Source of the DNA: Polyangia bacterium
Lineage (GTDB): Bacteria; Myxococcota_A; Polyangia; Palsa-1104
Direction: 5' to 3'
Length of the DNA stretch: 64,000 nucleotides
Assembly: GCA_039923495.1 (NCBI GenBank)
Contig: JBDTCO010000064.1
Span: 2 to 64,001 of the forward strand
Of the stretch, positions 3,666 to 64,000 are shown piece by piece. Numbering within the stretch: the stretch's first letter is position 1; the number at the start of each line of letters is the position of its first letter. The translations under genes and the position numbers were made by a program. The notes under the pieces were generated by a model that made no database searches, had not been told where the DNA came from, and saw only the letters and a list, made by a program, of their open reading frames with translations.

Positions 3666-3897
3666 GACGGATCCGCGGAAAACGTGATGAACCTAGCGCC
3701 ATTGCTGCGATGCGTCAAGGGGCCGTGCGTCGCGTAAGTGCGGGGCGAAGTGACGGCCACACGCATGTCGGCGAGGGTGAAGGGGCTCAAAGGAAATTCG
3801 GGAGTGAAGAGTCTGCAGCCGGGAAGCCTGCGCGGCCCGGAGCGGTACGGAGCGGCTCTGCGCGGCCGGACGGCCGCCCGGCCTCTCTGCGATCGAG

Positions 3898-11190: not shown

Positions 11191-11237
11191 GAGGGCGCAA
11201 TCGTAGCACGCGTCTGCCGTGATACGTTGCTCGCCGG

Positions 11238-13232
11238 ATGACGCGGACCGCCGATGTGGTGCTCGGCGCTGGCCTGGTCGCCGGTGTCCTTTTTTGTGGC
11301 TGCGATGTGCCGCGCGAACTCACGCTCGTCCCCGCGCTGCCGCGGCCGTGCGGCGGCGCGAACACGGGTTCGCTGAGCGTGCGCGGCCTCGGCGACTTTG
11401 CACCGACGGCAAAGAGCGTCGCGACGTCGGCCACGGGCGCGGTGGACCTTGCCCTGTCGTTGCAGCGCAACACGCGGGTCATCACGCTCTCTGGTGTGGG
11501 TGGTGCATCAGTGCCGTTCGGTCGCACGGCGCCGCTCGCGCTGCCGGCGCTGTGGAGCGACGCGCACGTCGCGTCCATCGTATACGGGCCGCCGGACACG
11601 TTCTGCGACACGGCGTCGATGGTGTACGCGCGCGCCGGTCATCGCGCGACCCTGCTCGACGATGGGACCGTGGTGCTCACCGGCGGAATCAATCGCGATG
11701 GGTACGGCGTCGCGCCGATCGAGCGCTACCTTCCGGCCGGCGATGCGAGCTCGCCGATCGCGCGCTTCGAGCTCGCGGATCAAGGAGGCACCACACTGGA
11801 TGCGCGCTCCGTGCTCGGCCATGGGGCGACCGTGATGAACGATGGTCGCGTGCTGCTGACCGGGGGCGTGCCGGCCGGTGCCAGCACCGTCGCGTTCGAG
11901 GGCGCCGTCGTGCTCGATGCGCTGGGACGCGCCACTGGCAAGCCGCTGTTGCTCGGCGGCGGACCGCGCGCGTACCACGCGAGCGTCGCGCTCGCCGACG
12001 GTACGATCCTCCTGACGGGGGGCTGCCTCGAGGTCGACGGCAACGCGTGCGCGACCGGCCGCACGCTCGACACCGCCGTCCTCTACGATCCGGCGACCGA
12101 CGCGTTCACCGACGCACCGACCCTCACGGTCGCGCGCGCCGGTCACGCGGCGCTCCTGCGCAGCGATGGGCTCGTGCTGCTCGTGGGTGGGAACGGAGCG
12201 GACGGGAGCGTGCCACCCGTCGAGCTGTACGATCCGAGCGAGCAGCGCGGCTCGTTGCTCACGGGGCCGGTCGGGCACGCGGTGCGGCTCGACAGCGGGC
12301 TCGTCATCGGGGTGAACGATGCGGCAGGCCCGAGCGCGGTCGTCTCTGCGTGGAGCGGTCGCGACGACGCGACCGTCGCGCTGCCGTCGCTTCCGACCAG
12401 CCGGAGCGACGGCACGCTGACCGCGCTCGAGGACGGCAGCGTGCTGTTCGCCGGCGGCTGGGACGGCGCGTCGCTCGCGAGCACGAGCGTCGTGCTCGGC
12501 GGCGATCCGCTCGGTCCGTCGACGCTGCTCTCGGGTTTCCTCGCGCATGGCCACACCGCGACGCGGCTCCTCGACGGGACCGTCCTGCTCGCAGGCGGCT
12601 CGGACCTCACCGGCATGTCGAGCGCGCACGCCTCCGTGTTCCTGCGCTCGCTGCGTGGACCGTTCGACACGCCTGCCACGTTCGACTTCGGCGGGGGTGT
12701 CGCGCTCTCACCGAGTCGCGCGGATCACGTGAGCACCGTCGACGGCGCGCTCGTGGTGAGCACGGATGTGCAGGGTGACGTGCCGCTCGTCGACTACGCG
12801 CTCGTGGCCGGACCCGAGCTCGCGGGACCATCGGCGGCAGGGTTCTCGCTGTCAGTGCTCGCCGGTCGTAAGGCGCTCGGTACCGGCACAGCGGCGCTCC
12901 TGTTCGGCGCGCCGGCAAGCGGTCGCTACGTGGCCGTGCGCATCGCGGCGAACGCTGGGCCGACGGTGCTCGTGGTGGCGCCGGATCGCGCGGGGCGCCT
13001 CGACGCGAGCGTGCAGCCCGGCTGCGATGCGAGTGTCGTGGCGGACGGCGAGCTGCCGGCCGGGGGACTGTCGGCGTTCACCCTCACGGCCCGAGATGGC
13101 CGCATCGAGCTGCACACGGCGACGCGGCGGGTGCTCCGCTGCAGCGACGAAGGGTGGCCCGGGCGCGGCATGCTCGGGGTCGGTGCGGCGGATGGCGTCG
13201 TGGTGTTCGACAACGTCGCCATACTCCGCTGA
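11238..13232 (+). CDS. Kelch-repeat (beta-propeller) lipoprotein
   Basis: LFCGC lipobox. Repeated DGxVLLTGG / DGTILLTGG / DGLVLLVGG kelch-like blades. Confidence 0.75.
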   Translation: MTRTADVVLGAGLVAGVLFCGCDVPRELTLVPALPRPCGGANTGSLSVRGLGDFAPTAKSVATSATGAVDLALSLQRNTRVITLSGVGGASVPFGRTAPLALPALWSDAHVASIVYGPPDTFCDTASMVYARAGHRATLLDDGTVVLTGGINRDGYGVAPIERYLPAGDASSPIARFELADQGGTTLDARSVLGHGATVMNDGRVLLTGGVPAGASTVAFEGAVVLDALGRATGKPLLLGGGPRAYHASVALADGTILLTGGCLEVDGNACATGRTLDTAVLYDPATDAFTDAPTLTVARAGHAALLRSDGLVLLVGGNGADGSVPPVELYDPSEQRGSLLTGPVGHAVRLDSGLVIGVNDAAGPSAVVSAWSGRDDATVALPSLPTSRSDGTLTALEDGSVLFAGGWDGASLASTSVVLGGDPLGPSTLLSGFLAHGHTATRLLDGTVLLAGGSDLTGMSSAHASVFLRSLRGPFDTPATFDFGGGVALSPSRADHVSTVDGALVVSTDVQGDVPLVDYALVAGPELAGPSAAGFSLSVLAGRKALGTGTAALLFGAPASGRYVAVRIAANAGPTVLVVAPDRAGRLDASVQPGCDASVVADGELPAGGLSAFTLTARDGRIELHTATRRVLRCSDEGWPGRGMLGVGAADGVVVFDNVAILR

Positions 13233-16035: not shown

Positions 16036-16070
16036 ACTGGCTCGTGACCGTCCTCGAGGAGCGCTAGCCG

Positions 16071-17360
16071 ATGTGGCGGATCATCGCGCTCGACAAGGAC
16101 GGTCGCGAGGTAGCGCGTCTCGAGATCGCGACGGGCGAGCTCACCATCGGTCGCGATCAGGACCGCCAGATCCAGTTGCCGTCAGCGAGCGTGTCTCGTC
16201 GGCACGCGCGCCTGATGGTCAGTGGTGGGCAGTTGCTCATCGTCGACGAGGGCTCCGCGAACGGTGTTTCGGTCAACGGCACGCGTGTCACGAGTGCGAT
16301 GCCAGTCGACGGTCTCTCGAGGATCGAGATCTCCGAGTTCCGCATTGTCGTCGAGCCCCATGGTGCGCCGATGATGGGCGATCCGCCGACGCCTGCGGTG
16401 TCACCGATGGCGACCTCGCTCGTCACGGAGTCGATCCGGCTGGTCGCGCAGGGCGGCCCGTTCGACGGTCGTGTTTTCCCCGTCATCGGCGAGTGCACCG
16501 TGGGCCGCGCCACCGAGAACCAGATCGTGCTCGACGATCCGTCGCTGTCGCGCAAGCACGCACAGCTCCGCGGGCAGGGACGCCGCCTCGACGTGGCCGA
16601 TCTCGGCTCGTCCAACGGCACCTTCGTCAACGGTCGTAAGGTCGGGCGCGCCACCGCGACGCCCGGCGACACCGTCCGCTTCGGCGAGCTGAGCTTTCGC
16701 ATCGAAGACGAGCGAGGGCAGGGCAGAGCCGGCGGTGAGCTCACGAGCGGCCTCATGATCGCGCTGCTCGGCTCCGGCGCCCTCACCCTCGTCATCGTGC
16801 TCGTCGCGGGCGTCGTCCTCGTCCGCAGGCCGACGGCAGTCGCCGCACCCGCGAAGGACGCCATCGCGCGCATCTCGCGCCAGGCCGAGCAGCACCTCAA
16901 GCTCGGCAAGCAACTCTTCAACGACAAGAAGTGGAGCGATGCGAAGATCGAGCTCGATGCCACGATCGAGTCGGATCCCGCGAACACCGAGGCCCGCCGC
17001 TTGAAGGCGCTCGCCACGCGCGCGCCCGAGGACGAGCGCAACCTCGCCAGCGCTGCGTCCGCGCTCGCCATCGGCGACCGTCGAGGCCTCGAGACGGCGA
17101 TGAGGTTGCGCGACGAACTCCTCGTCGGCACGGCGGCCCGCAACTCGCTCGAGGCAAAGCTCGTCCCGCGCCTCCTGCAGTTCGGGCTCGCGCGCTTCGA
17201 TGAGAGAAACTTCGTCGACGCGGAGTGGGCCCTGTGCCGCGCGTTCGAGGTCAACAGCGTCCAGGCGCGCGCGGACGCTCGTGCGGGCCACGACATCCAC
17301 GACGCCGAGAAGAAGCTCGCCCACGAACGCGGCTCTCAACCGTGCCGCGCAGCTCGTTGA
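16071..17360 (+). CDS. Double-FHA-domain membrane protein with C-terminal helical/TPR-like region
   Basis: Two FHA cores (LTIGRDQDRQIQL...SRRHARL and CTVGRATENQIVL...SRKHAQL). One TM helix (LMIALLGSGALTLVIVLVAGVVLV). Confidence 0.85.
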   Translation: MWRIIALDKDGREVARLEIATGELTIGRDQDRQIQLPSASVSRRHARLMVSGGQLLIVDEGSANGVSVNGTRVTSAMPVDGLSRIEISEFRIVVEPHGAPMMGDPPTPAVSPMATSLVTESIRLVAQGGPFDGRVFPVIGECTVGRATENQIVLDDPSLSRKHAQLRGQGRRLDVADLGSSNGTFVNGRKVGRATATPGDTVRFGELSFRIEDERGQGRAGGELTSGLMIALLGSGALTLVIVLVAGVVLVRRPTAVAAPAKDAIARISRQAEQHLKLGKQLFNDKKWSDAKIELDATIESDPANTEARRLKALATRAPEDERNLASAASALAIGDRRGLETAMRLRDELLVGTAARNSLEAKLVPRLLQFGLARFDERNFVDAEWALCRAFEVNSVQARADARAGHDIHDAEKKLAHERGSQPCRAAR

Positions 17361-52695: not shown

Positions 52696-54075
52696 ATGAC
52701 GGCCACGATGGCCACAGCTGCGAGCTCGCGACGACTCTTCGGTACCGACGGCGTGCGCGGTGTCGCCAACGTCGAACCCATGACCCCGGAGACGGCGATG
52801 CGGCTCGGTCGCGCTGTCGCCTACCACTTTCGCCACAAGTCGCGCCGCGGCCGTATCGTCATCGGCAAGGACACGCGGCTCTCGGGCTACATGTTCGAGC
52901 AGGCCATCGCGGCCGGCATCTGCTCGATGGGCGCGGATGTCATGATCTGCGGCCCGCTGCCGACGCCGGGGATCGCCTTCATCACCTCGTCGATGCGCGC
53001 CGACGCGGGCATCGTCATCTCGGCCTCGCACAATCCGTATCAGGACAACGGGATCAAGATCTTCGCGGCTGACGGCTTCAAGCTGCCCGACGAGGTCGAG
53101 ATGCACCTCGAGGAGCTCATCACCGGCACGGAGCTCGACAAGCACACGCCATCCTCGGCGCACATCGGCCGGGCCACGAAGATCGAGGACTCGCGCGGGC
53201 GCTACACCGTGTTCCTGAAGAGCGTGTTCCCGCGCCACCTCACGCTCGACGGGCTGCGTATCGTCGTCGATACCGCCAACGGCGCCGCATACAAGGTCGC
53301 GCCGTGGGTGTTCCAGGAGCTCGGCGCCGAGGTCATCCAGGTAGGCGACGAGCCGAACGGCACCAACATCAACGAGGACTGCGGCGCGCTGCACCCCGGC
53401 AAGATGTGCGAGATGGTGAAGCGCTACCGCGCCAACCTCGGCATCGCGGTCGACGGGGACGCCGATCGCGTCATCGTCGCGGACGAGAACGGCGAAGAGG
53501 TCGACGGCGACACCATCATGGCGATGGTCGGGCTCCGCATGCTCGAGCGCAAGGAGCTGAAGAAGGACACCATCGTCGCCACGGTCATGTCCAACCTCGG
53601 CCTCGAGCGCGCGGTGGACAAAGCGGGTGGCAAGCTCGTGCGCACGTCGGTCGGCGACCGCTACGTCGTCGAGGAGATGCGCAAGCACGGCTACAACTTC
53701 GGCGGTGAGCAGTCGGGACACCTCGTGTTCCTCGATCACATGACGACCGGCGACGGCGTGCTCGCGGCGTTGCAGGTCCTCGCGGTCATGCTCGAGAGCG
53801 GCAAACCGCTGTCGGAGCTGCGCCAGGTGATGACGCGTTATCCGCAGGTCCTCGTGAACCTGAAGGTCAGGGAGAAGCGCCCGCTCGAGACGCTCACCGA
53901 CGTGAGCAAGCTCGTCTCGCAGGTGGAGGCCAAGCTCGGCAAGGAGGGGCGCGTGCTCGTGCGCTACTCCGGCACCGAACACAAGGCGCGCGTCATGGTC
54001 GAAGGTCCCGACGAGGCCGTCATCCGGGGCTACGCCGAGGAGATCGGTCGCGCCCTCGAGCGGGGATGCGGTTGA
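52696..54075 (+). CDS. glmM: Phosphoglucosamine mutase
   Basis: [11 protein letters not shown]. Active-site SASHNP. GGGAG RBS. Confidence 0.9.
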
Positions 54076-54617
54076 TGACGAAGGTAGTAGTCGCGCTGAG
54101 CCTCCTGCTCGTCTTCTGTGCGAACGACGGCTGCGCGAACGGCGGGACCACTGTGAGCCACGGCAAGCCGCAGAACATCTGCCCCGACAACCCCACGTAC
54201 TGCGCGGGCAGCTGCTGTGGCGCGCTCTGCGTCGACACCACGAGTGACTCCAAGAACTGCGGCGGCTGCGACATCGTCTGCTCCGTCGGCACGTCGTGTG
54301 TGAGCGGGGCGTGCGGCTGCCCACCCACGGGCTCGACCTGCGGTGCCGGCCAGAGCTGCTGCGGCGACAACGGCTGCAAGAGCCTCAACTCCGACATCAA
54401 CAACTGCGGCGGCTGCGGCATCGTGTGCAACGGGACCTGCACCGCGGGGAGCTGCAGCGGCACCACCGTGGATGCCGGCAGCGCGGTCGACATGGCCTCG
54501 CCCGTCTCCGGCGGCTGCACGTGCACGTCGACCTGCCTTCTGGGTTGCGTCGGCAACAACTGCTGTCTCGAGGGCGTGATCGCGGGTAGCTGCTCGCCCG
54601 ATCCCAACTGCCCGTGA
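54066..54617 (+). CDS. Secreted Cys-rich repeat protein (two NCGGCxIVC modules)
   Basis: Signal/lipobox [11 protein letters not shown]. ~40 Cys in 183 aa. Internal duplication ([16 protein letters not shown] / [17 protein letters not shown]). Confidence 0.55.
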
Positions 54618-57268: not shown

Positions 57269-57400
57269 GCTCATTGCCAGGTTGTCACGGGAGCGAGCGA
57301 GTCCCCGGACCAAAGTGCAAGATGGCAGCGCACGAGGGGTGGTCGCGCCCATGCGGTCGCGGGTTTGGCCGGGGGCACGCGCCTTGCTGAATCCCTCGGC

Positions 57401-58009
57401 ATGGAAACCTTTCAAGCCCATCTCGTCCCCGAATTGCCCCGACTGACCGCCATCGCGCGACGCCTGTGCCGCGATCCGGAAGACCTCGTGCAGGAGACCA
57501 TCGCGCGGGCGCTGCGGTTCCAGACGGGTTTCCGTATTGGCAGCGACCTGCGTGCGTGGCTGACGCGCATCCTGTTCAACCTGCACGCCGGCGAGCGTCG
57601 CCGCGGGGCACGCTATGCGCGCGCTCGTGCCGCGTATGCAGTCGAGCCGCACGCGGCGGTGGTGGAGCCGTCCGTGGCCGCCGAGCTGCGCGGCTGCTGC
57701 CCACGCCTGGCGGCGCAGGACCTGGAGCTCATCGTGCGCGCCGATTTCGACGGCTACACGTACGCCGAGATGGCCACCGATCTGCACGTGCCGATCGGCA
57801 CCGTGATGTCGCGCCTGTTCCGCGCGCGTCGTCGCGTAAAGGGTGCGATGACGGACGTGCCTGCTCAGCGCAGAGGCGTGTCGTCGGCGAAGACGTCGAG
57901 CGCGCCCGTCGGCACGCCTTCGTCGCGCACGACGCCGCGATCGTCCGCGACGAAGGTCACGACGAGGCCGTCGGCGAGGCCGATGCGCGCGGTCGTCGCC
58001 GGGCGCTGA
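57401..58009 (+). CDS. ECF-type RNA polymerase sigma-70 factor
   Basis: Sigma region 2 (DLVQETIARAL) and region 4 (YTYAEMATDLHVPIGTVMSRLFRAR). The ORF tail overlaps the convergent HEAT gene. Confidence 0.75.
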   Translation: METFQAHLVPELPRLTAIARRLCRDPEDLVQETIARALRFQTGFRIGSDLRAWLTRILFNLHAGERRRGARYARARAAYAVEPHAAVVEPSVAAELRGCCPRLAAQDLELIVRADFDGYTYAEMATDLHVPIGTVMSRLFRARRRVKGAMTDVPAQRRGVSSAKTSSAPVGTPSSRTTPRSSATKVTTRPSARPMRAVVAGR

Positions 58010-60183
58010 AGCCGCAGCAAGAGGTAGTCGGCACCACCGCGCGGTGCCGCACGACGCCTGCCGACGACGAGCGCGTTGTCGCGAACGCGCGGGTCCGGAT
58101 CGTGCGCGAGACGCAGCAACACCTCGGGTGACAGCACGCGCTGCCTGCGACCGAGCGCCGCGAGCGCGTTGGCGCGGACCGCAGCGCTGGGATCGGCGAG
58201 GTGCGCGTCGAGCGCGCGATCCGCTTCGTTCCACGCGACCGGGTGCTTCACCTTGCCGAGCGCCCACGCGGCCGTGAGCCGTACGCCCGGGTCGGAGTCG
58301 ACGAGCGCCCCGACGAGCGCGCGCTCCGCTGCGCTGCTGTCGCCGGCGAGCGCCATGTCGCCGAGCGCCGCGTAGAGGCGAGCACGACGGAGCGGACGAC
58401 GCTGCAGCTTCGGCACGAGCCGCAGCAGGCGATCGGCGCTGCTGGCATCGCGCATCGCCCCGAGCAACTCGAGCGCGCCGGCTGATCCCGCCTGGTCGGA
58501 GCCCGCGAGCGAGAGACAGACCTCGCGGGCGACGGTGTTCACGTGACCGCGCAGGGGACCGAGCAGCGCGAGGCTCGCCGGGTCGCGTGCGCGCTCGACG
58601 CCACCCTTGAGCAAGGCGAGCAGCACGGGCACGAGCGCGCCTGCACCGGCATCGTCGGAGAGCGCGAGCGCGGCCGTCATCGCGGTGGCTGCGTCGTTGG
58701 CCGAAAGAGCCGCGACGAGCGCGTGGCGCGAGGCAGCGTCCCGTCGCTGGCCGAGCGCTGCGAGGCTCGCTCGCACGAGGGACTGATCGTCGTCCTGCGC
58801 CGCGCGCAGCAGCGTGGACTCGCGCGCCGACGACGTGCGGACGAGCGAGAGCAGCGCGCCGTGCTGCACGCCGCGATCGGGATCGGCCAGCGCAGCTTCG
58901 AGCGGCGCTGCGGCGCGCGTGTCGCCGAGCTCACCGAGCGCCGCGGCTGCAGCACGTCGAGCGGCGACGCCGGGATCGCCGAGGCGACCCGCGAGCCACG
59001 CCACGAGCTCGTCGCGCACGGGACCCTTCGGTGGTCGCGCGCGCACGAGCTGCGCGTCGAAGCGGCCGTCGGAGGCAAGGCGCGTCAGCGCGAGTACGAG
59101 CATGGTGACCGCGGTGTCGCCGTCGTGCATGAGCTCGCCCGCGACGAGCAGCGCTCCGTCGCCGGGGCGCTCGCCGAGCGCGGGCAAGAGACCTGCGAGG
59201 AGCGGCGCGGCAGCGGCACCCGACACGCGCAGGCCCTCGAGCGCGGCGGTGCGGTTCAGATCGTTGCGGGCTGCGCGCACGAGCGCTTCGCCCGCCCGCG
59301 CCCGCAGCGCACGCACGATCGCGTCGTCGCTGGGCGCACCGGCGATGCGACCGAGCGCGAGCGCCACCGGTCCCGCGAGCGGCTCGCGCGGCACGTTCAG
59401 CATCGGGACGAGACGTGGCACGGCGGTCTCCGCAGCGAGCAGCCCGAGCGTCGAGATGGCCGCCGCGCGGACCTCTTCTGCGCTGTCGTCGACAAGGCGC
59501 AGCACCGCCGAGGCCGCACGCCTGTCACCGAGCGTGCCGAGCGCGCGTGCGACCGCGAGCCTCACTTCCGGAGACGCGTCGTCGACGTGCGCCGCGAGGC
59601 CGTGCAGCGCGAACGGATCGCCGATCTTCTCGAGGGACTCGGCGGCTGCGCGACGCAGCTCGGGGTTCTCGTCGGACAGAGCGCCGACGATGGCCTCGGT
59701 CGTCGCGGCCTTGCCTGCGGCCGTGGGCGTGCGTTCCGTCAGCGCGTGCAGGGCCGCGAGTCGCACCGCGATCTCCGGGTCGGCGAGCGCACGTCCGAGC
59801 GCGACCTCGACGTCACGCCGCGCAGGACCGTGCAGCTTGCCGAGCGCGCTGACGGCCGTCTCGCGGAGCTTCCCATCGGCGTCGGTGGCCTCGCCGAGGA
59901 GGCGCTGCGTGGCATCCGGAAGACCGAGCTGCCCCGCGGCGATGGTCGCGGCCACGCGCACGGCGAGCTCGGGATCGTCGAGCGCGCGAGCGAGCAGGGG
60001 CCGCGCAGCCTCGGCATCCAGCGTCGCGAGCTCGCGCGCTGCCCTCGCTCGCCGATCGGCGTCGGGCGCAGCCAGCTCCGTGGAGAGCCGTGTGACCGCA
60101 GGGGGGTCGGCGAGCGCAACCGCCGCTCCGAAAGAGAAAGACAGCGACAGTGCAGCCACGAGAGGCCGCAGCGCTGCGCGCAT
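57865..60183 (-). CDS. Secreted HEAT/PBS-lyase-repeat protein
   Basis: Signal peptide present. More than 15 repeats of the form DPxxxVRxxAxxALGxLG. Confidence 0.7.
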   Translation of the reverse strand: MRAALRPLVAALSLSFSFGAAVALADPPAVTRLSTELAAPDADRRARAARELATLDAEAARPLLARALDDPELAVRVAATIAAGQLGLPDATQRLLGEATDADGKLRETAVSALGKLHGPARRDVEVALGRALADPEIAVRLAALHALTERTPTAAGKAATTEAIVGALSDENPELRRAAAESLEKIGDPFALHGLAAHVDDASPEVRLAVARALGTLGDRRAASAVLRLVDDSAEEVRAAAISTLGLLAAETAVPRLVPMLNVPREPLAGPVALALGRIAGAPSDDAIVRALRARAGEALVRAARNDLNRTAALEGLRVSGAAAAPLLAGLLPALGERPGDGALLVAGELMHDGDTAVTMLVLALTRLASDGRFDAQLVRARPPKGPVRDELVAWLAGRLGDPGVAARRAAAAALGELGDTRAAAPLEAALADPDRGVQHGALLSLVRTSSARESTLLRAAQDDDQSLVRASLAALGQRRDAASRHALVAALSANDAATAMTAALALSDDAGAGALVPVLLALLKGGVERARDPASLALLGPLRGHVNTVAREVCLSLAGSDQAGSAGALELLGAMRDASSADRLLRLVPKLQRRPLRRARLYAALGDMALAGDSSAAERALVGALVDSDPGVRLTAAWALGKVKHPVAWNEADRALDAHLADPSAAVRANALAALGRRQRVLSPEVLLRLAHDPDPRVRDNALVVGRRRAAPRGGADYLLLRLQRPATTARIGLADGLVVTFVADDRGVVRDEGVPTGALDVFADDTPLR

Positions 60184-60185
60184 GC

Positions 60186-60467
60186 TCAGGCCCGGAAGCC
60201 CGCGTTGAGCGTCGTCTTGGTCGCGTTGCCCGTCTTGAGCGCCACGAAGCGATCCGCCGGCAGGTAGAAGCGCTCGCCCTTGTGTGTGAGCACGACCACG
60301 ACGTCGGGGCCGAGCTCGATGCGGCTGGCGCGCGAGACCTGCAAGGTCTCCTCGCCGACGCTGGCGTAGAGCGTCACGTCCAGCTCCTCGGAGAACAGGT
60401 ACGCGGCGCCGTCCTTCCGCACGCCGGGCAGATCGTTGAGCACGTTCTCGAGCTTGAGGTGAGCCAT
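60186..60467 (-). CDS. Small hypothetical protein (93 aa)
   Basis: ORF ends 3 nt upstream of the HEAT gene start. Coding-like GC3 bias. Confidence 0.45.
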   Translation of the reverse strand: MAHLKLENVLNDLPGVRKDGAAYLFSEELDVTLYASVGEETLQVSRASRIELGPDVVVVLTHKGERFYLPADRFVALKTGNATKTTLNAGFRA

Positions 60468-60516: not shown

Positions 60517-62421
60517 CTACTTGAAGCCGAACGAAAAGGAAGCGTGGGTCTTCGAGCCGTTGAACTTCGGGAAGGCAATAGCCTGCATCTTGCCGTAGAT
60601 GCAGCTCGCGAACGCGCCCGTGGTCTGGCCATTGACCTTGACGCCCTGCACGGAGCCGGACCCCTTGATGATGAAGTCGAGGTCGACGTTGCGGAGGCTC
60701 GAGTTGCGCGAACGCTCCTCCATCATGCAGCCAGTGAGCAGTCTGAAGTTCTGCGTCATGACGCGCTGAACGGTCGGACCGTCGAGCGTCTCGTCGCCGC
60801 CGCTCTCGGACGCATCGCCGAGCACGGTGGTATCGTCGAAGACGTTCTTGCCATTCACCATCTTGCCGGCGCCCCTGTGCTTGCCTGGCGTCTTCTTCTC
60901 CGGCGGATCGACCTTCATCGTGACGTCGAACTTGAAGTCGGGATCGGAGCGCTCCTTGACGATGACGACCTTCGCCTTCTGGTGCTGCACGAACCAGAAG
61001 AGGCCCGCGCCGCCGCCGAGCGCGACGAGCAGCAGGATGGCGAGCAGTCCGACCACGCGACCGCGGTGCTTGTCGCGCGACGCGGACTCCATGCGGAGGC
61101 GCTCGTTCTCGGCGTTCATCGCGTCCGCCTGCAGCGCCATCTCGCGCAGCAGCGGGTGATCCTTCACGCGACGACGCTCACCATTCTCGGTGTCGACGAT
61201 GGTGTGCTCGCCCTGGATCTTGCCCTGTTCGATCTGCGCCTTGACGTCGCGCAGTGTGAACGGACCAAAGTCGAGCTTGTCCTTCTGGACGAGCCAGCGC
61301 TCGTGCGACTCGTCGACGCTGGAGAGCGCCGTGTCGACGTTGAATGATGCAGGCACGGGGCGCGGGGCTGCCGGCATGCCCGGCGAGCTCATCGGCGCTG
61401 CGCTCGCCGAGCGTGGCGGTGGCGGTGCGGAGGCGTGCGGAGGCGGCAGCTTCGGGATGCTCTGCGACGAAGCGCCCTGCGGAATCTTGGGCACCGCCGA
61501 CGACGAAGGAGCGGTCGCTGCCTTCGGAACAGACTGCGAGCTCGCGCTCACCGCACCCGGTGCACCGGCCGGCGCGATGTCCGGGCCGACCGCGTGCTGC
61601 AGCGCTTCCTTCAGCGTACCCATGTCGGGATAGCGGTTGGTCGGCTCGATGCGCAGCGCGGTGTCGAGGAACATGTCGATGGGCCGCGTGATGCCCTGCG
61701 CGATCGTGCTCGCCACGGCGACCGGCTGTGTCGGCGGCTGACCCGTGAGGATCTCGTAGAGCAGCGCGCCGGTGGAGTAGACGTCGGCGCGACGATCGAC
61801 GCGATCGGGCGAGCCGAGCGCTTCGGGCGCGAGGTTCGGCACCGCCTGCGCGACGACGCTCTTGCCACCCGACAGCAGGATCGCGCGTGCGACGCCGAGC
61901 TCGAGCACCTTCACGCGGCCTGCCGCCGTGATGTGCACCGAGCGCATCGACAGGCCGCCGTGCACAGAGCCGGCGTGGCTGTGCAGCGCCTGCAGCCCAT
62001 TGGCCAGGTGCGCGATGACGTTGTACGCGCCCTTCAGCGAGAACGGTTTGCCGGCAGCGCGCTTCTTCTCGTGCATCTCGGCGAGCGACTGCCCGTCGAG
62101 GTACTCGTAGACGACGTACGTTACGGTGCCGCGCTGCGAGAGCTCGTCGCCGAAGTCGAGCGGGACGGCGAGGTTCTTGTGGTCGAGGCCCGCGAGCTGC
62201 TCGATCTCCCGACGCACGGCCCCGCGCAGGCGCTGGTCACCGAACAGGCGCGAGTCGAGGATCTCGATGCTGACGAACGTCTGGTCCGCGCGGCGCTTCG
62301 CCTTGTAGAGGACGCCGAACGCGGACTCGCTCTGCGGCTCGATGATTTCGTAGCGGCCGCCGAGCACCGTTCCAGGAGAGACGGGCTGTTCGCCGCGAGA
62401 GGGGTTGCCTTGTGGATCCAT
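60517..62421 (-). CDS. Predicted pseudokinase (Ser/Thr-kinase fold lacking catalytic residues) with TM segment and AgmX/PglI-like C-terminal domain
   Basis: Kinase-like fold, but FVSIEIL replaces VAIK, HGGLSMRSV replaces HRDLKPxN, and ELGVA replaces DFG. Pro/Ser-rich linker and a TM helix. Confidence 0.75.
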   Translation of the reverse strand: MDPQGNPSRGEQPVSPGTVLGGRYEIIEPQSESAFGVLYKAKRRADQTFVSIEILDSRLFGDQRLRGAVRREIEQLAGLDHKNLAVPLDFGDELSQRGTVTYVVYEYLDGQSLAEMHEKKRAAGKPFSLKGAYNVIAHLANGLQALHSHAGSVHGGLSMRSVHITAAGRVKVLELGVARAILLSGGKSVVAQAVPNLAPEALGSPDRVDRRADVYSTGALLYEILTGQPPTQPVAVASTIAQGITRPIDMFLDTALRIEPTNRYPDMGTLKEALQHAVGPDIAPAGAPGAVSASSQSVPKAATAPSSSAVPKIPQGASSQSIPKLPPPHASAPPPPRSASAAPMSSPGMPAAPRPVPASFNVDTALSSVDESHERWLVQKDKLDFGPFTLRDVKAQIEQGKIQGEHTIVDTENGERRRVKDHPLLREMALQADAMNAENERLRMESASRDKHRGRVVGLLAILLLVALGGGAGLFWFVQHQKAKVVIVKERSDPDFKFDVTMKVDPPEKKTPGKHRGAGKMVNGKNVFDDTTVLGDASESGGDETLDGPTVQRVMTQNFRLLTGCMMEERSRNSSLRNVDLDFIIKGSGSVQGVKVNGQTTGAFASCIYGKMQAIAFPKFNGSKTHASFSFGFK

Positions 62422-62529
62422 CGACACGAGGCGGCGATGGTACGGGGGGCGAGACTGCCGCGTCAACGCGCGCGTTTGCCCTCGTTGCGGGCGAGACCGC
62501 GCGGGCGACTTCAGCGCCTACTTCCGCGC

Positions 62530-63018
62530 CTACTTAAGCACTACCGGCAAGTTCTTCGCCTGGGCGATCCACGCGACCAGATGGGCCTGGCTGGGGGGAT
62601 TCTCGCTGAGCTTCCGCAGCGCGTTCGCCTTCATGATCGCGTCCTCCGTGAGCGCGGCGTCCGCCTTCTGCAGGGCGGCGACCGTCGGTACGCCGACCGC
62701 GGTGAGGAGCCGCGCCACGTCGGGACCGACGCCGCGGACGCGCATGAGGTCGCAAAGCTTCACCCAGCCGTCGAGCACGCGCGGCGAGACGTGGATCTGC
62801 ACAGCGAGCGCCTTGCGATCGCGCGGATCGCTCGCCTTCTCGAGGAGCGCGAAGGTGGTGGCGATGCCGGCGGTGCGCAGCCGGGCGGCCTCGTCCGCGG
62901 GGATGACCACGGGGACCTCCTCGAGCGCGTAGTTCGAGGCATGAGCGATGCTGCTCGATGCGCAGACGATGGACAGGCAGAGGGGGACGAGGAAAAACTT
63001 CACGGACTGGACGAGCAT
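62530..63018 (-). CDS. Secreted DUF4332-like (HhH-type) protein
   Basis: Signal peptide (FFLVPLCLSIVCASSSIAHA). Helix-hairpin-helix-like segments. Confidence 0.55.
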   Translation of the reverse strand: MLVQSVKFFLVPLCLSIVCASSSIAHASNYALEEVPVVIPADEAARLRTAGIATTFALLEKASDPRDRKALAVQIHVSPRVLDGWVKLCDLMRVRGVGPDVARLLTAVGVPTVAALQKADAALTEDAIMKANALRKLSENPPSQAHLVAWIAQAKNLPVVLK

Positions 63019-64000
63019 GGGGCCCTCCCTAGGAGTAGCTGGGACTGCGCGAGCGTGGCGGGATCTGAGTGCGCCGAGGCCAGCCGCTGCGCGGTACGAG
63101 CTTCGGTGCAGGCTGCGTCGTTGCCGAGCCGCGAGAGCAGCGATGCCAGGGCCTGACGGATGACGGGATCTTCTGGCGCGAGGGTCTTCGCGCGGTGCAT
63201 GTGGGCGAGCGCCTCGAGGCGATGGCCTCGCTTCTCCGCGACCTCGGCGGTGAGGCGCTCGAGCCGTGGCGTCTCGCCGTCGTGGTGGAGCGCCGTGAGG
63301 CGCGTCGCCGCCGCGTCGAGCTGGCCAGTGGCGATGAGCTCGTCCACGTCGGTGAGGAGCGCTCGGGGTGCGGACGGTGTCTCGGCCACTGCGGAGCGTT
63401 GACGCAGCCGGCTCACCCCGAGCGCACCTGCGGCGAGCACGATGAACGTCGCCACCGCGATCCACACGCCCGCGTTGCTGCGCGCCGGCTGCAGCTCGGA
63501 GTCGTAGATCGACGGCTCGACGATGGCCTCCTGCCCGGTCGGCTCGAGCGCGCCGACCTTCCCGGGCACGGTACGCTTGTCGCGCGAGCCGACTACCGAG
63601 ACGGGTGTAGCGGTCGACGTGGGTCCCGTCGCCTCGCCGCGCTGCACGAGCGGGAGCAGCGCCTCCGCAACCGCGCCGGCCGACGCGTAGCGGTCCTTGG
63701 GCCGCTTCTCCAGGCAGCGCAGGATGATGGTCTCGAGCGCAGGTGGGATGTCGGGCGCGAGCTCGTGCGGCGGCTTCGGGATCTCGCGGACATGCTTCGT
63801 CAGCGTCTGGACGAACGTGTCGCCACGGAACGGCAGCACGCCCGTCGTCATGCGATAGAGCAGCACGCCGAGCGAGTAGAGATCCGTGCGTGCGTCGAGC
63901 GGCTCGCCCTGCGCCTGCTCCGGTGCCATGTACTCGGGCGTTCCGAAGACGGTGCCGTCGCGCGTGATCGAGTGGCTCTTCCCCGAGTCCGACGCGAGCT
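63000..64000 (-). CDS. Ser/Thr protein kinase, C-terminal part (5' end beyond window)
   Basis: Frame is open to the window edge. GTPEYMAPEQ activation segment, TM helix and TPR-like tail. Confidence 0.8.
   Translation of the reverse strand, partial: LASDSGKSHSITRDGTVFGTPEYMAPEQAQGEPLDARTDLYSLGVLLYRMTTGVLPFRGDTFVQTLTKHVREIPKPPHELAPDIPPALETIILRCLEKRPKDRYASAGAVAEALLPLVQRGEATGPTSTATPVSVVGSRDKRTVPGKVGALEPTGQEAIVEPSIYDSELQPARSNAGVWIAVATFIVLAAGALGVSRLRQRSAVAETPSAPRALLTDVDELIATGQLDAAATRLTALHHDGETPRLERLTAEVAEKRGHRLEALAHMHRAKTLAPEDPVIRQALASLLSRLGNDAACTEARTAQRLASAHSDPATLAQSQLLLGRAPCSSSP

What the first reader, a model, noticed from the sequence alone, without database searches (positions are those of the whole stretch)
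60517..62421. Membrane pseudokinase with AgmX/PglI-like extracytoplasmic domain
The kinase fold is clear, but all three catalytic signatures are lost: beta3 Lys (VSIE in place of VAIK), the catalytic loop (HGGLSMRSV in place of HRDLKPxN) and the Mg-binding DFG (ELGVA). It is probably a catalytically dead scaffold. It sits in a same-strand row of another kinase, a DUF4332 protein, a 93-aa ORF and a secreted HEAT-repeat protein.
Basis: seen in the sequence. Interest (0 to 1): 0.6.

Follow-up and report, generated by a model that had tools for sequence, protein, structure and literature searches.

The report
Dead-kinase membrane adaptor with GltJ-like module
This gene encodes a membrane protein whose kinase-like head has lost its catalytic residues and sits on a protein-binding (GYF) domain, a membrane helix and a TonB-like periplasmic tail; it belongs to a conserved, undescribed family in uncultured myxobacteria that most likely links partners across the cell envelope rather than phosphorylating anything.

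Summary
ORF 60517..62421 (-) encodes a 634-aa protein with a clear Hanks-kinase fold (Pfam E 2e-20; PknB E 1e-25). The beta3 Lys is Glu53, HRDxKxxN is H154-G-G-L-S-M-R-S161, DFG is E174-L-G, and there is no Gly-rich loop.

This is a family trait, not a one-off decay. None of 120 full-length relatives, and none of 78 species-level genomic loci, keeps the HRD Asp. The domain is under purifying selection (dN/dS 0.12).

- a Pro-rich cytoplasmic linker;
- a GYF domain, the most conserved block, whose best PDB match is the Myxococcus GltJ GYF;
- a helix, then one TM segment (N-in);
- a periplasmic linker;
- a TonB-CTD-like AgmX/PglI tail with an invariant Cys pair.

The conserved neighbours are a novel 93-aa protein (63/79 loci) and a secreted ~800-aa HEAT solenoid (48/58). 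DUF4332 (39/77) and the active kinase (20/66) are less constant.

Best reading: a non-catalytic trans-envelope adaptor built like GltJ/GltG, docking periplasmic partners with its tail and cytoplasmic partners with GYF and the dead kinase. It is a new variant of known kinds and of moderate interest.

The parts
60517..62421 (-). Whole gene: 634-aa membrane pseudokinase (ATG 62421, stop 60517-60519)
   Evidence: GC3 0.88. 100% identical to P0001, annotated 'protein kinase', Polyangia MAG.
61567..62373 (-). Cytoplasmic Hanks-type kinase-fold domain (aa 17-285), catalytically degenerate: E53 for beta3 Lys, H154-G-G for HRD, S158 and S161 for the catalytic-loop Lys and Asn, E174-L-G for DFG, no GxGxxG
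   Evidence: Pfam E 2.3e-20. PknB alignment. Family tally: 0/120 keep the HRD Asp and 0/78 loci do. dN/dS 0.12 against the L001 ortholog.
61348..61566 (-). Pro/Ala/Ser-rich low-complexity cytoplasmic linker (aa 286-358; 19 Pro in 73 residues)
   Evidence: composition. In the family the linker has a median of 23% Pro against 7% for whole proteins, and 90/120 members have at least 15% Pro. It is the fastest-evolving segment (61% identity, dN/dS 0.30).
61147..61314 (-). GYF domain of the bacterial GltJ type (aa 370-425). The core 'ERWLVQKDKLDFGPF' is the most conserved block of the family.
   Evidence: Invariant W376, K380, L383, D384, G386, P387, F388. AF2 model pLDDT 87. Best PDB fold match is 7z3c, the GltJ GYF (prob 1.0, E 0.011), followed by Smy2, GIGYF and CD2BP2 GYFs. 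7z3c is also the top sequence-profile hit, though not significant (E 0.59). Pfam GYF_2 is sub-threshold (E 0.028). dN/dS 0.07.
61057..61146 (-). Charged helix (aa 426-455) linking GYF to the membrane and ending in RDKHRGR (positive-inside)
   Evidence: Helix 63-79 of the model, equal to aa 426-442. Sequence.
60988..61056 (-). Single transmembrane helix (aa 456-478, VVGLLAILLLVALGGGAGLFWFV). The topology is N-in, C-out.
   Evidence: This is the only segment with a 19-residue Kyte-Doolittle mean above 1.6 (peak 2.48). Basic residues lie on the N-terminal side. It has no His and no SHLS-type motif.
60784..60987 (-). Periplasmic linker (aa 479-546) with the conserved motifs MKVDPP and LGDASEGGGDETL
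   Evidence: Family consensus, with L534 and G535 nearly invariant. Low pLDDT in the model, i.e. probably disordered when alone. dN/dS 0.12.
60520..60783 (-). Periplasmic TonB-CTD-like AgmX/PglI C-terminal domain (aa 547-634) with an invariant Cys pair (C565, C607) and an FPxF motif
   Evidence: NF033768: 36.5 bits against a cut-off of 40. 32/34 relatives match, and some exceed the cut-off. AF2 pLDDT 81.5. The top 15 PDB fold hits are all TonB or TolA C-terminal domains (FusB 7zc8 E 4e-3, TonB-BtuB 2gsk). dN/dS 0.06.
60186..60467 (-). Conserved partner gene: 93-aa cytoplasmic protein of an undescribed family (C-terminal AGF(G)R motif)
   Evidence: GC3 0.95. A homolog lies just downstream of the pseudokinase in 63/79 loci. 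There are 514 clusters at E <= 0.001; the 120 listed are stand-alone 92-107 aa proteins, and any named source is Polyangia. No Pfam or PDB match.
57865..60183 (-). Conserved partner gene: secreted 772-aa HEAT-repeat solenoid
   Evidence: HEAT_2 E 8.5e-51. Found downstream on the same strand in 48/58 loci. Signal-peptide-like N-termini in the window and in the L003, L005 and L006 orthologs.
62530..63018 (-). Partner gene in about half of the loci: secreted DUF4332 protein (162 aa; signal peptide ...IAHA|SNYALEE)
   Evidence: PF14229 E 1.5e-24. Found upstream in 39/77 loci. Signal peptides in the orthologs. Start refined.
63000..64000 (-). 3' two-thirds of an upstream membrane Ser/Thr kinase, cut by the window end. 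Its L001 ortholog is Zn-ribbon, canonical kinase, TM, TPR-like domain.
   Evidence: Pkinase C-lobe E 1.7e-14. The 67%-identical ortholog in L001 has GQGGMG, VAVK, HRDLKPDN, DFG and APE. A kinase gene lies upstream in 20/66 loci.
62437..62466 (-). Promoter-like site TTGACG-18-TACCAT just upstream of the ATG. Its TTG is the start codon of the longer mechanical ORF.
   Evidence: 1 found against 0.1 expected in shuffles. This is a consensus match only.

Best explanation
The protein is a non-catalytic, single-pass inner-membrane adaptor that connects periplasmic and cytoplasmic partners. It has the same layout as the Myxococcus gliding proteins GltJ and GltG: cytoplasmic interaction domains, one TM helix, a disordered periplasmic linker and a TonB-CTD-like domain.

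Shown:
- The N-terminal domain has the kinase fold but lacks the catalytic base in every relative. In this member it also lacks the ATP- and Mg-binding residues, so canonical phosphotransfer is not possible.
- The domain is nevertheless under purifying selection.
- A GltJ-type GYF domain follows a Pro-rich linker.
- The tail has a TonB/TolA C-terminal-domain fold with a conserved Cys pair.
- A small cytoplasmic protein and a secreted HEAT solenoid are the constant neighbours.

Inferred:
- The periplasmic tail, plus the conserved linker motifs, docks onto the co-encoded secreted HEAT solenoid and perhaps the DUF4332 protein. This would parallel the predicted docking of the GltG and GltJ TonB-CTDs onto the periplasmic TPR solenoid GltD.
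- In the cytoplasm, the GYF domain binds a proline-rich sequence, either of a partner or of its own linker (autoinhibition).
- The dead kinase domain serves as a docking or allosteric surface. In the clades that have one, including this window, the partner would be the adjacent active Zn-ribbon kinase.
- The net function would be to relay an envelope or periplasmic state to cytoplasmic signalling proteins, or to tether them to an envelope complex.
For: - Kinase fold and loss of K/D/N/D.
- Family-wide loss of the HRD Asp: 0/120 and 0/78 species-level loci.
- Purifying selection in every domain: dN/dS 0.06-0.15 in the folded parts.
- GYF fold with GltJ GYF as the best PDB match; it is the most conserved block.
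- Pro-rich linker in 90/120 members. The GltJ GYF binds the AglZ proline-rich sequence (PMC11135422).
- Single TM helix with positive-inside rule.
- TonB/TolA-CTD fold of the tail and AgmX/PglI HMM matches in 32/34 relatives.
- The GltG and GltJ TonB-CTDs are predicted to dock on the periplasmic solenoid GltD (PMC11761067).
- Conserved neighbours: small protein 63/79, HEAT 48/58 always on the same strand, DUF4332 39/77. The HEAT and DUF4332 proteins carry signal peptides.
- Tight spacing in the window (2, 49 and 108 nt gaps; a 19-nt overlap).
- Family size: 216 clusters at 50% identity with E <= 1e-30, and 142 species-level genomes, the 80 listed all being Polyangia, Haliangiales or Kofleriaceae MAGs.
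Against: - No interaction was tested or modelled; partner assignment rests on gene neighbourhood and on analogy with AlphaFold models of the Glt complex.
- Part of the synteny is shared with housekeeping genes (YjeF, AcpS, PdxJ, GlmM). It could therefore reflect conserved gene order among related genomes rather than function. However, the pseudokinase-small-HEAT triad persists in L004, where those genes are absent.
- The window's tail scores just below the NF033768 cut-off.
- The fold-search E-values are modest (4e-3 and 1e-2).
- 33/120 relatives keep the beta3 Lys and 81/120 keep the DFG Asp, so nucleotide binding may matter in some clades.
- No ExbBD, TolQR or Agl motor genes, and no glt genes, were found among the large ORFs of the window.
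Confidence: 0.55

Rival explanations
1. Kinase-pseudokinase pair. The dead kinase domain mainly acts as an allosteric activator, inhibitor or phospho-substrate of the adjacent active Zn-ribbon/TPR membrane kinase. The pair forms a receptor complex whose output may be the neighbouring ECF sigma factor.
For: An active-looking kinase lies immediately upstream on the same strand. All 8 loci whose pseudokinase keeps both the beta3 Lys and the DFG Asp have such a kinase upstream. An ECF sigma gene abuts the HEAT gene in 19/50 loci, including this one. Membrane pseudokinases that work with active kinases are known, for example M. tuberculosis MviN in the ActPs3 family (mechanism from established knowledge, Gee et al. 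2012).
Against: Only 20/66 loci have a kinase within 3 kb upstream, and the largest clade has none. The pseudokinase and the neighbouring kinase are only about 30% identical, no closer than to PknB. No Thr is conserved in the activation segment. The sigma adjacency co-varies with housekeeping synteny. This model is not exclusive of the best explanation.
Confidence: 0.25
2. It is a bona fide component of a gliding (Agl-Glt-like) machine: a GltJ/GltG paralogue energised by a TolQR-like AglRQS motor.
For: It has the same GYF-TM-linker-TonB-CTD layout as GltJ. The GltJ and GltG NCBIfam models hit the tail in 27 and 21 of 34 relatives.
Against: Equivalog scores are 23-24 bits against cut-offs of 450 and 650, and only the tail matches. 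There is no Zn-ribbon or FHA domain. No agl or glt genes, and no TolQR or ExbBD genes, were found among the large ORFs of the window or in the annotated flanks of 5 related loci. The TM helix has no conserved His or SHLS motif.
Confidence: 0.1
3. The kinase-like domain keeps an unconventional enzymatic activity: atypical phosphotransfer, AMPylation as in SelO, or glutamylation as in SidJ.
For: Several 'pseudokinases' have turned out to be enzymes (references listed in PMC8141879). Part of the family keeps the beta3 Lys (33/120) and the DFG Asp (81/120).
Against: This member lacks the Gly-rich loop, the beta3 Lys, the catalytic-loop Asp, Lys and Asn, and the DFG Asp all at once. No acidic residue occurs in aa 148-173. 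Nothing other than His-Gly is conserved across the family in the catalytic loop.
Confidence: 0.05
4. It is a decaying gene or an annotation artefact.
For: All catalytic motifs are lost.
Against: The reading frame is intact, with GC3 0.88. dN/dS is 0.12. The same substitutions are conserved across more than 100 divergent relatives.
Confidence: 0.01

Closest known systems
GltJ (AgmX) of the Myxococcus xanthus Agl-Glt gliding machinery
   Same: A cytoplasmic GYF domain of the bacterial type: GltJ GYF (PDB 7z3c) is the best fold match and the top, non-significant, sequence-profile hit. After it come a single TM helix, a disordered periplasmic linker and a C-terminal TonB-CTD-like AgmX/PglI domain. 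In both proteins the GYF domain goes with proline-rich sequence, in AglZ for GltJ and in cis here.
   Different: The N-terminus is a 270-aa pseudokinase instead of a Zn-ribbon plus MglA-binding linker. The periplasmic linker is much shorter (about 68 aa). There is no glt or agl gene context. The GltJ equivalog model scores 23 bits against 450. The partners here are a HEAT solenoid, DUF4332 and a 93-aa protein.
GltG (PglI) of M. xanthus
   Same: Cytoplasmic signalling-type interaction domains belonging to the Ser/Thr-phosphorylation world (FHA there, a kinase fold here), then a TM helix, a linker and a TonB-CTD. The GltG tail is predicted to dock on the periplasmic alpha-solenoid GltD, as is proposed here for the HEAT protein.
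   Different: GltG has two FHA domains and no GYF. Its TM helix contacts the AglR motor. The equivalog score here is 24 bits against 650.
MviN (MurJ) pseudokinase domain of Mycobacterium tuberculosis (ActPs3 family of the bSTK atlas)
   Same: A bacterial membrane protein carrying a cytoplasmic Hanks-fold pseudokinase that acts as a docking scaffold rather than as an enzyme.
   Different: In MviN the pseudokinase is fused to a 14-TM flippase, lacks the activation loop and is Actinobacteria-specific. Here the activation segment and APE are intact, and the fusion partner is a GYF-TM-TonB-CTD module.
PknB-type receptor Ser/Thr kinases
   Same: The closest sequence relatives of the kinase-like domain (E 1e-25, about 30% identity). 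The topology is the same: cytoplasmic N-terminal kinase domain, single TM helix, extracytoplasmic C-terminal domain.
   Different: PknB is catalytically active and has PASTA sensor domains. Here the catalytic residues are absent and the outside domain is TonB-CTD-like.
TonB / TolA energy-transducing proteins
   Same: The fold of the C-terminal periplasmic domain. All of the best 15 PDB matches are TonB or TolA CTDs.
   Different: There is no N-terminal SHLS-type anchor and no Pro-rich periplasmic rod (the Pro-rich stretch is cytoplasmic). No ExbBD or TolQR genes are nearby. The protein has a large cytoplasmic N-terminal region.

Membership tests
Hanks-type protein kinase fold (Pfam PF00069) | Significant profile match spanning the N- and C-lobes | tested here: met
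   E 2.3e-20, 73.5 bits against a cut-off of 31.7. PknB alignment over aa 19-271.
Catalytically competent Hanks kinase | beta3 Lys (VAIK) | tested here: not met
   E53. In the family: K 33, R 38, H 18, L 10, Q 8, E 5 of 120.
Catalytically competent Hanks kinase | Catalytic-loop Asp (HRD), plus the loop Lys and Asn | tested here: not met
   H154-G155-G156, S158, S161. Asp is present in 0/120 relatives and 0/78 loci.
Catalytically competent Hanks kinase | DFG Asp and the Gly-rich loop | tested here: not met
   E174-L-G, and S-E-S-A-F-G in place of GxGxxG. 81/120 relatives keep the Asp.
Pseudokinase (kinase fold lacking at least one of K/D/D) | Kinase fold retained, at least one catalytic-triad residue missing, and the sequence conserved rather than decaying | tested here: met
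   dN/dS 0.12.
AgmX/PglI C-terminal domain (NCBIfam NF033768) | HMM score at or above the curated cut-off (40 bits) | tested here: inconclusive
   The window protein scores 36.5 bits, E 4e-9. 32/34 relatives match at E < 1e-3. P0053 (42.8), P0055 (41.2) and P0011 (40.1) pass the cut-off.
AgmX/PglI C-terminal domain (NCBIfam NF033768) | Extreme C-terminal location beyond a TM helix, a conserved Cys pair, and a TonB-CTD-like fold | tested here: met
   aa 547-634 after the TM helix at 456-478. C565 and C607 invariant. Fold hits to TonB CTDs.
GltJ (NCBIfam NF033761 equivalog) | Full-length match at or above 450 bits, and an N-terminal Zn-ribbon | tested here: not met
   23.1 bits, tail only. The N-terminus is a kinase fold.
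GltJ (NCBIfam NF033761 equivalog) | GYF domain followed by a TM helix and a TonB-CTD | tested here: met
GltJ (NCBIfam NF033761 equivalog) | Encoded with, or functioning with, agl/glt genes | tested here: not met
   None was found among 20 large ORFs of the window or in the annotated flanks of L001-L006. Genome-wide presence was not testable.
GYF domain (Pfam GYF_2 PF14237) | Profile match above the gathering score | tested here: not met
   14.6 bits against 25.8, E 0.028. Only 2/34 relatives reach E < 0.01.
GYF domain (Pfam GYF_2 PF14237) | GYF fold (beta-beta-alpha-beta-beta) | tested here: met
   Model pLDDT 87. Of the top 13 PDB hits, 10 are annotated GYF domains, led by GltJ GYF with prob 1.0; ranks 2-4 are TIC/TOC-TIC complex chains.
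TonB/TolA family | C-terminal domain fold | tested here: met
   FusB, TonB-BtuB, TonB-FoxA and TolA, with prob 0.9-0.99.
TonB/TolA family | N-terminal anchor with an SHLS/His motif, and an ExbBD or TolQR partnership | tested here: not met
   The TM helix is central, with no conserved His. No motor genes nearby.
Published bacterial pseudokinase families (CP1, DYD, ActPs1-3, DLHK, GLW; bSTK atlas) | Family-specific constraint patterns | not testable with these tools
   No models are available. The text describes no Myxococcota pseudokinase family and no GYF or TonB fusion.

The most novel reading that the evidence does not exclude
The pseudokinase, the 93-aa protein, the secreted HEAT solenoid and, in many genomes, DUF4332 together form a previously unrecognised trans-envelope system of Polyangia. 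It would be an evolutionary re-use of the GltJ-type GYF-TM-TonB-CTD connector in which a dead kinase replaces the Zn-ribbon switch. The GYF domain would be autoinhibited by the protein's own proline-rich linker and released by a periplasmic event, or by phosphorylation from a partner kinase. This would couple envelope mechanics or state to Ser/Thr signalling.
Probability: 0.2. Interest if true: 0.65.

Novelty: new variant of a known kind. Interest (0 to 1): 0.4.

Why it matters
Bacterial pseudokinases are barely characterised, and myxobacteria encode many of them: 11 of 99 STPKs in M. xanthus (PMC6791715). This family gives a clean, deeply conserved case in which the catalytic base has been absent throughout its history while the fold is kept under selection. 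The fold is hard-wired to two protein-interaction modules whose closest characterised counterparts are in the gliding focal-adhesion machine.

It shows that the GltJ-type connector (GYF, TM, TonB-CTD) is a reusable cassette outside motility gene clusters. It also nominates concrete partners to test: the HEAT solenoid, DUF4332, the 93-aa protein and, in some clades, an active kinase.

Practically, these proteins are annotated in public records simply as 'protein kinase' or 'serine/threonine protein kinase', which is misleading.

Tried and rejected
- Gap-adjusted rescue of the catalytic residues. A MAFFT alignment of 120 relatives with PknB, and the HMMER alignment to PknB, both place Glu, Gly and Glu at the K, D and D positions. 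No acidic residue lies near the catalytic loop and there is no WNK-type Lys after F35. Rejected.
- Recent decay or pseudogene. Rejected by dN/dS and by family conservation.
- The word-indexed search with the C-terminal-half profile returned only fragments of the same family and did not reach GltJ. The exhaustive representative search showed the top 150 to be the same family: the full-length hits carry the module in their C-terminal half, and the shorter ones are mostly C-terminal fragments.
- The 93-aa protein has no Pfam, PDB-sequence or named homolog.
- Literature searches for a pseudokinase-GYF or pseudokinase-TonB fusion found nothing. Perez et al. 2008 was not held.
- ECF sigma as the output. 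It is adjacent in only 19/50 loci and co-varies with housekeeping synteny, so it is kept as a lead only.
- No motor or gliding genes were found among the large ORFs scanned in the rest of the window.
Full report
**1. The observation**

The ORF on the minus strand, 60517..62421 from its ATG, encodes 634 aa. A mechanical extension reaches a TTG at 62466. Its third-position GC is 0.88, typical of real genes in this ~70% GC window. An identical protein exists in public data as 'MAG: protein kinase [Polyangia bacterium]' on a 64.9-kb contig.

Pfam Pkinase matches aa 34-246 at E 2.3e-20. phmmer against solved structures gives M. tuberculosis PknB at E 1.2e-25, aligned from aa 19 to 271.

In that alignment the catalytic residues read as follows, with coordinates verified:
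- PknB K40 (VAVK) faces E53 (VSIE).
- IHRDVKPAN faces V-H154-G-G-L-S-M-R-S161.
- DFG faces E174-L-G.
- The Gly-rich loop GFGGMS faces SESAFG.

The alphaC Glu, APE, DVYSxG and the alphaH-I Arg are kept, so the scaffold of the fold is intact. No Asp or Glu occurs in aa 148-173, and there is no WNK-type Lys in the Gly-loop.

The C-terminal 88 residues match the NCBIfam AgmX/PglI C-terminal domain (E 4e-9; 36.5 bits, just under the 40-bit cut-off) and the tails of the GltG and GltJ models.

**2. It is a family, and the family is dead by design**

About 67 full-length relatives came back from the first protein search. An exhaustive profile search with the C-terminal half found 216 clusters (50% identity) at E <= 1e-30. 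Most of the best 150 are 550-690 aa proteins carrying that module in their C-terminal half; the shorter ones are mostly C-terminal fragments. A scan of one genome per species found relatives in 142 genomes. The 80 listed are all MAGs labelled Polyangia, Myxococcales, Haliangiales or Kofleriaceae, with none from a cultured strain.

I aligned 120 full-length members with PknB:

| PknB position | Residues in 120 members |
|---|---|
| HRD Asp | D 0; A 60, G 34, L 12 |
| HRD Arg | G 116 |
| HRD His | kept in 118 |
| Catalytic-loop Lys | never Lys |
| Catalytic-loop Asn | N 19 |
| beta3 Lys | K 33, R 38, H 18, L 10, Q 8, E 5 |
| DFG Asp | D 81, E 23 |

The same picture holds in 78 species-level loci. 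All have H-G-x apart from one poorly aligned locus (L062, H-A-P), and none has the Asp. Arg dominates at beta3 in the largest clade, Tyr or Phe in the Kofleriaceae clade, and Lys in one clade. Glu or Gln occurs in the window's small clade (window, L001, L002, L007), which is among the most degraded, with E/Q at beta3 and ELG for DFG.

Against its 84%-identical ortholog (L001), dN/dS by domain is as follows:

| Domain | dN/dS |
|---|---|
| Kinase-like | 0.12 |
| Pro-rich linker | 0.30 |
| GYF | 0.07 |
| Tail | 0.06 |

The dead kinase domain is being maintained, not lost.

**3. The rest of the anatomy**

The most conserved block of the whole family is not in the kinase domain. It is 'ERWL[IV]QKDKLDFGPF', with W376, K380, L383, D384, G386, P387 and F388 invariant. 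Pfam sees it only weakly as GYF_2 (E 0.028; 2/34 relatives below 0.01).

An AlphaFold2 model of aa 364-443, built from 39 sequences, has pLDDT 87 and a beta-beta-alpha-beta-beta-alpha order. Its best PDB match is the solution structure of the GltJ GYF domain of Myxococcus xanthus (7z3c; prob 1.0, E 0.011). Ranks 2-4 are chloroplast TIC/TOC-TIC complex chains, followed by the Smy2, GIGYF and CD2BP2 GYF domains. 7z3c is also the top sequence-profile hit, although not significantly (E 0.59).

Upstream of the GYF domain lies a 73-residue linker with 19 Pro. In the family this linker has a median of 23% Pro, against 7% for whole proteins, and 90/120 members have at least 15%.

Downstream, a charged helix ends in RDKHRGR. 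The only hydrophobic segment follows (aa 456-478), which gives an N-in, C-out topology.

The periplasmic part has two pieces:
- a 68-residue linker with the conserved motifs MKVDPP and LGDASEGGGDETL; it has low pLDDT when modelled alone;
- an 88-residue domain (pLDDT about 89 in the folded part) with an invariant Cys pair (C565, C607).

The 15 best PDB matches of that domain are all TonB or TolA C-terminal domains, including FusB 7zc8 at E 4e-3 and the TonB-BtuB and TonB-FoxA complexes. 32/34 relatives hit the AgmX/PglI model and several exceed its cut-off. The GltJ and GltG equivalog models match only this tail.

**4. Surroundings**

In the window the row on the minus strand is:
- kinase (>64000..63000);
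- DUF4332 (63018..62530, overlapping the kinase stop by 19 nt);
- a 108-nt gap containing a promoter-like TTGACG-18-TACCAT;
- pseudokinase;
- a 49-nt gap;
- the 93-aa ORF;
- a 2-nt gap;
- the HEAT protein (60183..57865).

The HEAT gene's 3' end overlaps a convergent ECF sigma gene by 145 nt.

The upstream kinase is cut by the window end. Its 67%-identical ortholog in L001 is Zn-ribbon, canonical kinase (GQGGMG, VAVK, HRDLKPDN, DFG, APE), TM, then a TPR-like domain. The HEAT and DUF4332 proteins and their orthologs begin with signal-peptide-like sequences.

Across 86 related loci plus the window, counted with iterated HMM searches on all ORFs:

| Neighbour | Loci with it / loci with enough flank |
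|---|---|
| 93-aa protein, just downstream | 63/79 |
| HEAT protein, downstream, always same strand | 48/58 |
| DUF4332, upstream | 39/77 |
| Kinase-domain gene within 3 kb upstream | 20/66 |
| ECF sigma abutting the HEAT gene | 19/50 |

The triad of pseudokinase, small protein and HEAT persists where the flanking housekeeping genes (YjeF, AcpS, PdxJ, GlmM, CdaA) are replaced, as in L004. It is therefore more than inherited gene order.

The rest of the window holds unrelated genes: GGDEF-GAF, MMPL, a PEGA kinase, an FHA protein, acyl-CoA dehydrogenases, a TonB-dependent receptor, a P-type ATPase and FtsH. No Tol, Exb, Agl or Glt genes were found among the 20 large ORFs scanned.

**5. How it most likely works**

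Shown:
- a kinase fold that cannot carry out canonical phosphotransfer;
- a GltJ-type GYF domain next to proline-rich sequence;
- one TM helix;
- a TonB-CTD-like periplasmic domain;
- conserved co-encoded partners, two of them exported.

From the literature:
- GltJ (AgmX) is Zn-ribbon, linker, GYF, TM, disordered linker and TonB-C. Its GYF domain binds the proline-rich sequence of AglZ through its beta-sheet.
- Bacterial GYF proteins in general are proposed to signal between outside and inside (PMC11135422).
- GltG is FHA, FHA, TM, linker and TonB-CTD.
- The TonB-CTDs of both GltG and GltJ are predicted to dock on the periplasmic alpha-solenoid GltD (PMC11761067).

Inferred: this protein is a non-catalytic trans-envelope adaptor of the same design.
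- The tail and the conserved linker motifs bind the secreted HEAT solenoid, and possibly DUF4332.
- The GYF domain binds a proline-rich ligand. Its own linker is an obvious candidate, which would give an autoinhibited state.
- The dead kinase domain provides a docking or allosteric surface. In this clade the candidate is the neighbouring active kinase.

I put 0.55 on this composite. About 0.85 applies to 'catalytically inactive, selected for a non-enzymatic role', and less to the specific partners.

**6. Rivals**

- A dedicated kinase-pseudokinase pair, possibly feeding the ECF sigma, is plausible for this clade. It cannot be the family-wide logic, because most loci lack the kinase (0.25; not exclusive of the best explanation).
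- A true gliding-machine component is unlikely given the scores, the architecture and the context (0.1).
- Cryptic enzymatic activity is very unlikely for this member, which lacks every nucleotide- and metal-binding residue (0.05).
- Gene decay is refuted.

**7. Comparison and novelty**

Pseudokinases are known in myxobacteria: 11 of 99 M. xanthus STPKs (PMC6791715). A 2025 atlas of bacterial STKs defines seven pseudokinase families. None is Myxococcota-specific, and none is described with GYF or TonB-like domains. Searches for a pseudokinase-GYF combination in bacteria found nothing.

The parts are all known kinds. The combination, its strict association with a dead catalytic loop, and its partner set appear undescribed. 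I therefore class it as a new variant of a known kind, not a categorically new thing.

Interest is moderate (0.4). It is a tidy, testable family and a useful annotation correction. However, a pseudokinase in a kinase-rich myxobacterial lineage will not surprise specialists, and all carriers found are uncultured.

**8. Limits**

- No interaction was modelled or measured.
- Signal peptides and topology are heuristic.
- The window's tail is marginally below the curated NCBIfam cut-off.
- The synteny counts use stop-to-stop ORFs and HMMs trained within the session.

Noticed in passing
window 60186..60467 (-); L003 13788..14045, L004 11862..12074, L006 6676..6906: The 93-aa ORF belongs to a large undescribed family. 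There are 514 clusters at E <= 0.001; the 120 listed are stand-alone 92-107 aa proteins, and any named source is Polyangia. The family has a near-invariant C-terminal AGF(G)R motif and no Pfam or PDB match. In 59 of 63 loci it lies on the strand opposite to the pseudokinase. Only the window's small clade (window, L001, L002, L007) has it co-directional, which implies a local inversion.
   Followed up: partly
window 57365..58009 (+) against 57865..60183 (-): An ECF sigma-70 gene converges on the HEAT gene and overlaps its 3' end by 145 nt. The same overlap is seen in L001. A sigma gene abuts the HEAT gene in 19/50 related loci, and no anti-sigma gene is evident next to it here. It could be a kinase-regulated ECF sigma, or just conserved synteny.
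   Followed up: partly
window 62530..63018 (-): The DUF4332 protein carries a signal peptide (…IAHA|SNYALEE, conserved in the orthologs), so this helix-hairpin-helix-like domain of unknown function is apparently exported. Its start overlaps the stop of the upstream kinase by 19 nt, which suggests translational coupling.
   Followed up: partly
L001 7905..9485 (ortholog of window 63000..>64000): The neighbouring active kinase starts with a Zn-ribbon (CPTC…CPLDG) and ends with a TM helix and a TPR-like periplasmic region. The Zn-ribbon is the element that GltJ has and the pseudokinase lacks.
   Followed up: no
window 62437..62466 (-): This is the only sigma-70-like promoter match in 57.5-64 kb (TTGACG-18-TACCAT; 0.1 expected by chance). 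It sits 15 nt upstream of the pseudokinase ATG. Its TTG is the start codon of the longer mechanical ORF, which favours the ATG at 62421 and a very short leader.
   Followed up: no
window 54066..54617 (+): A 183-aa Cys-rich (CGGC/GxC repeats) secreted-looking ORF lies between glmM and pdxJ. A 181-aa gene with no Pfam hit lies at the same position in L001.
   Followed up: no
L003 11984..13780; L005 12094..14826: In some relatives extra genes are inserted between the pseudokinase and the HEAT gene: a 7TM-HD (7TMR-HD) phosphohydrolase in L003 (the same ~1.8-kb spacing in several other loci suggests the same insertion there), and a 910-aa unknown protein plus a TPR protein in L005.
   Followed up: no
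window 9349..11319 (-), 16068..17357 (+), 1827..3692 (-): Other signalling genes in the window are a Ser/Thr kinase with a PEGA domain, a double-FHA protein and a GAF-GGDEF cyclase. This fits a kinase-rich myxobacterial genome. No link to the finding was established.
   Followed up: no
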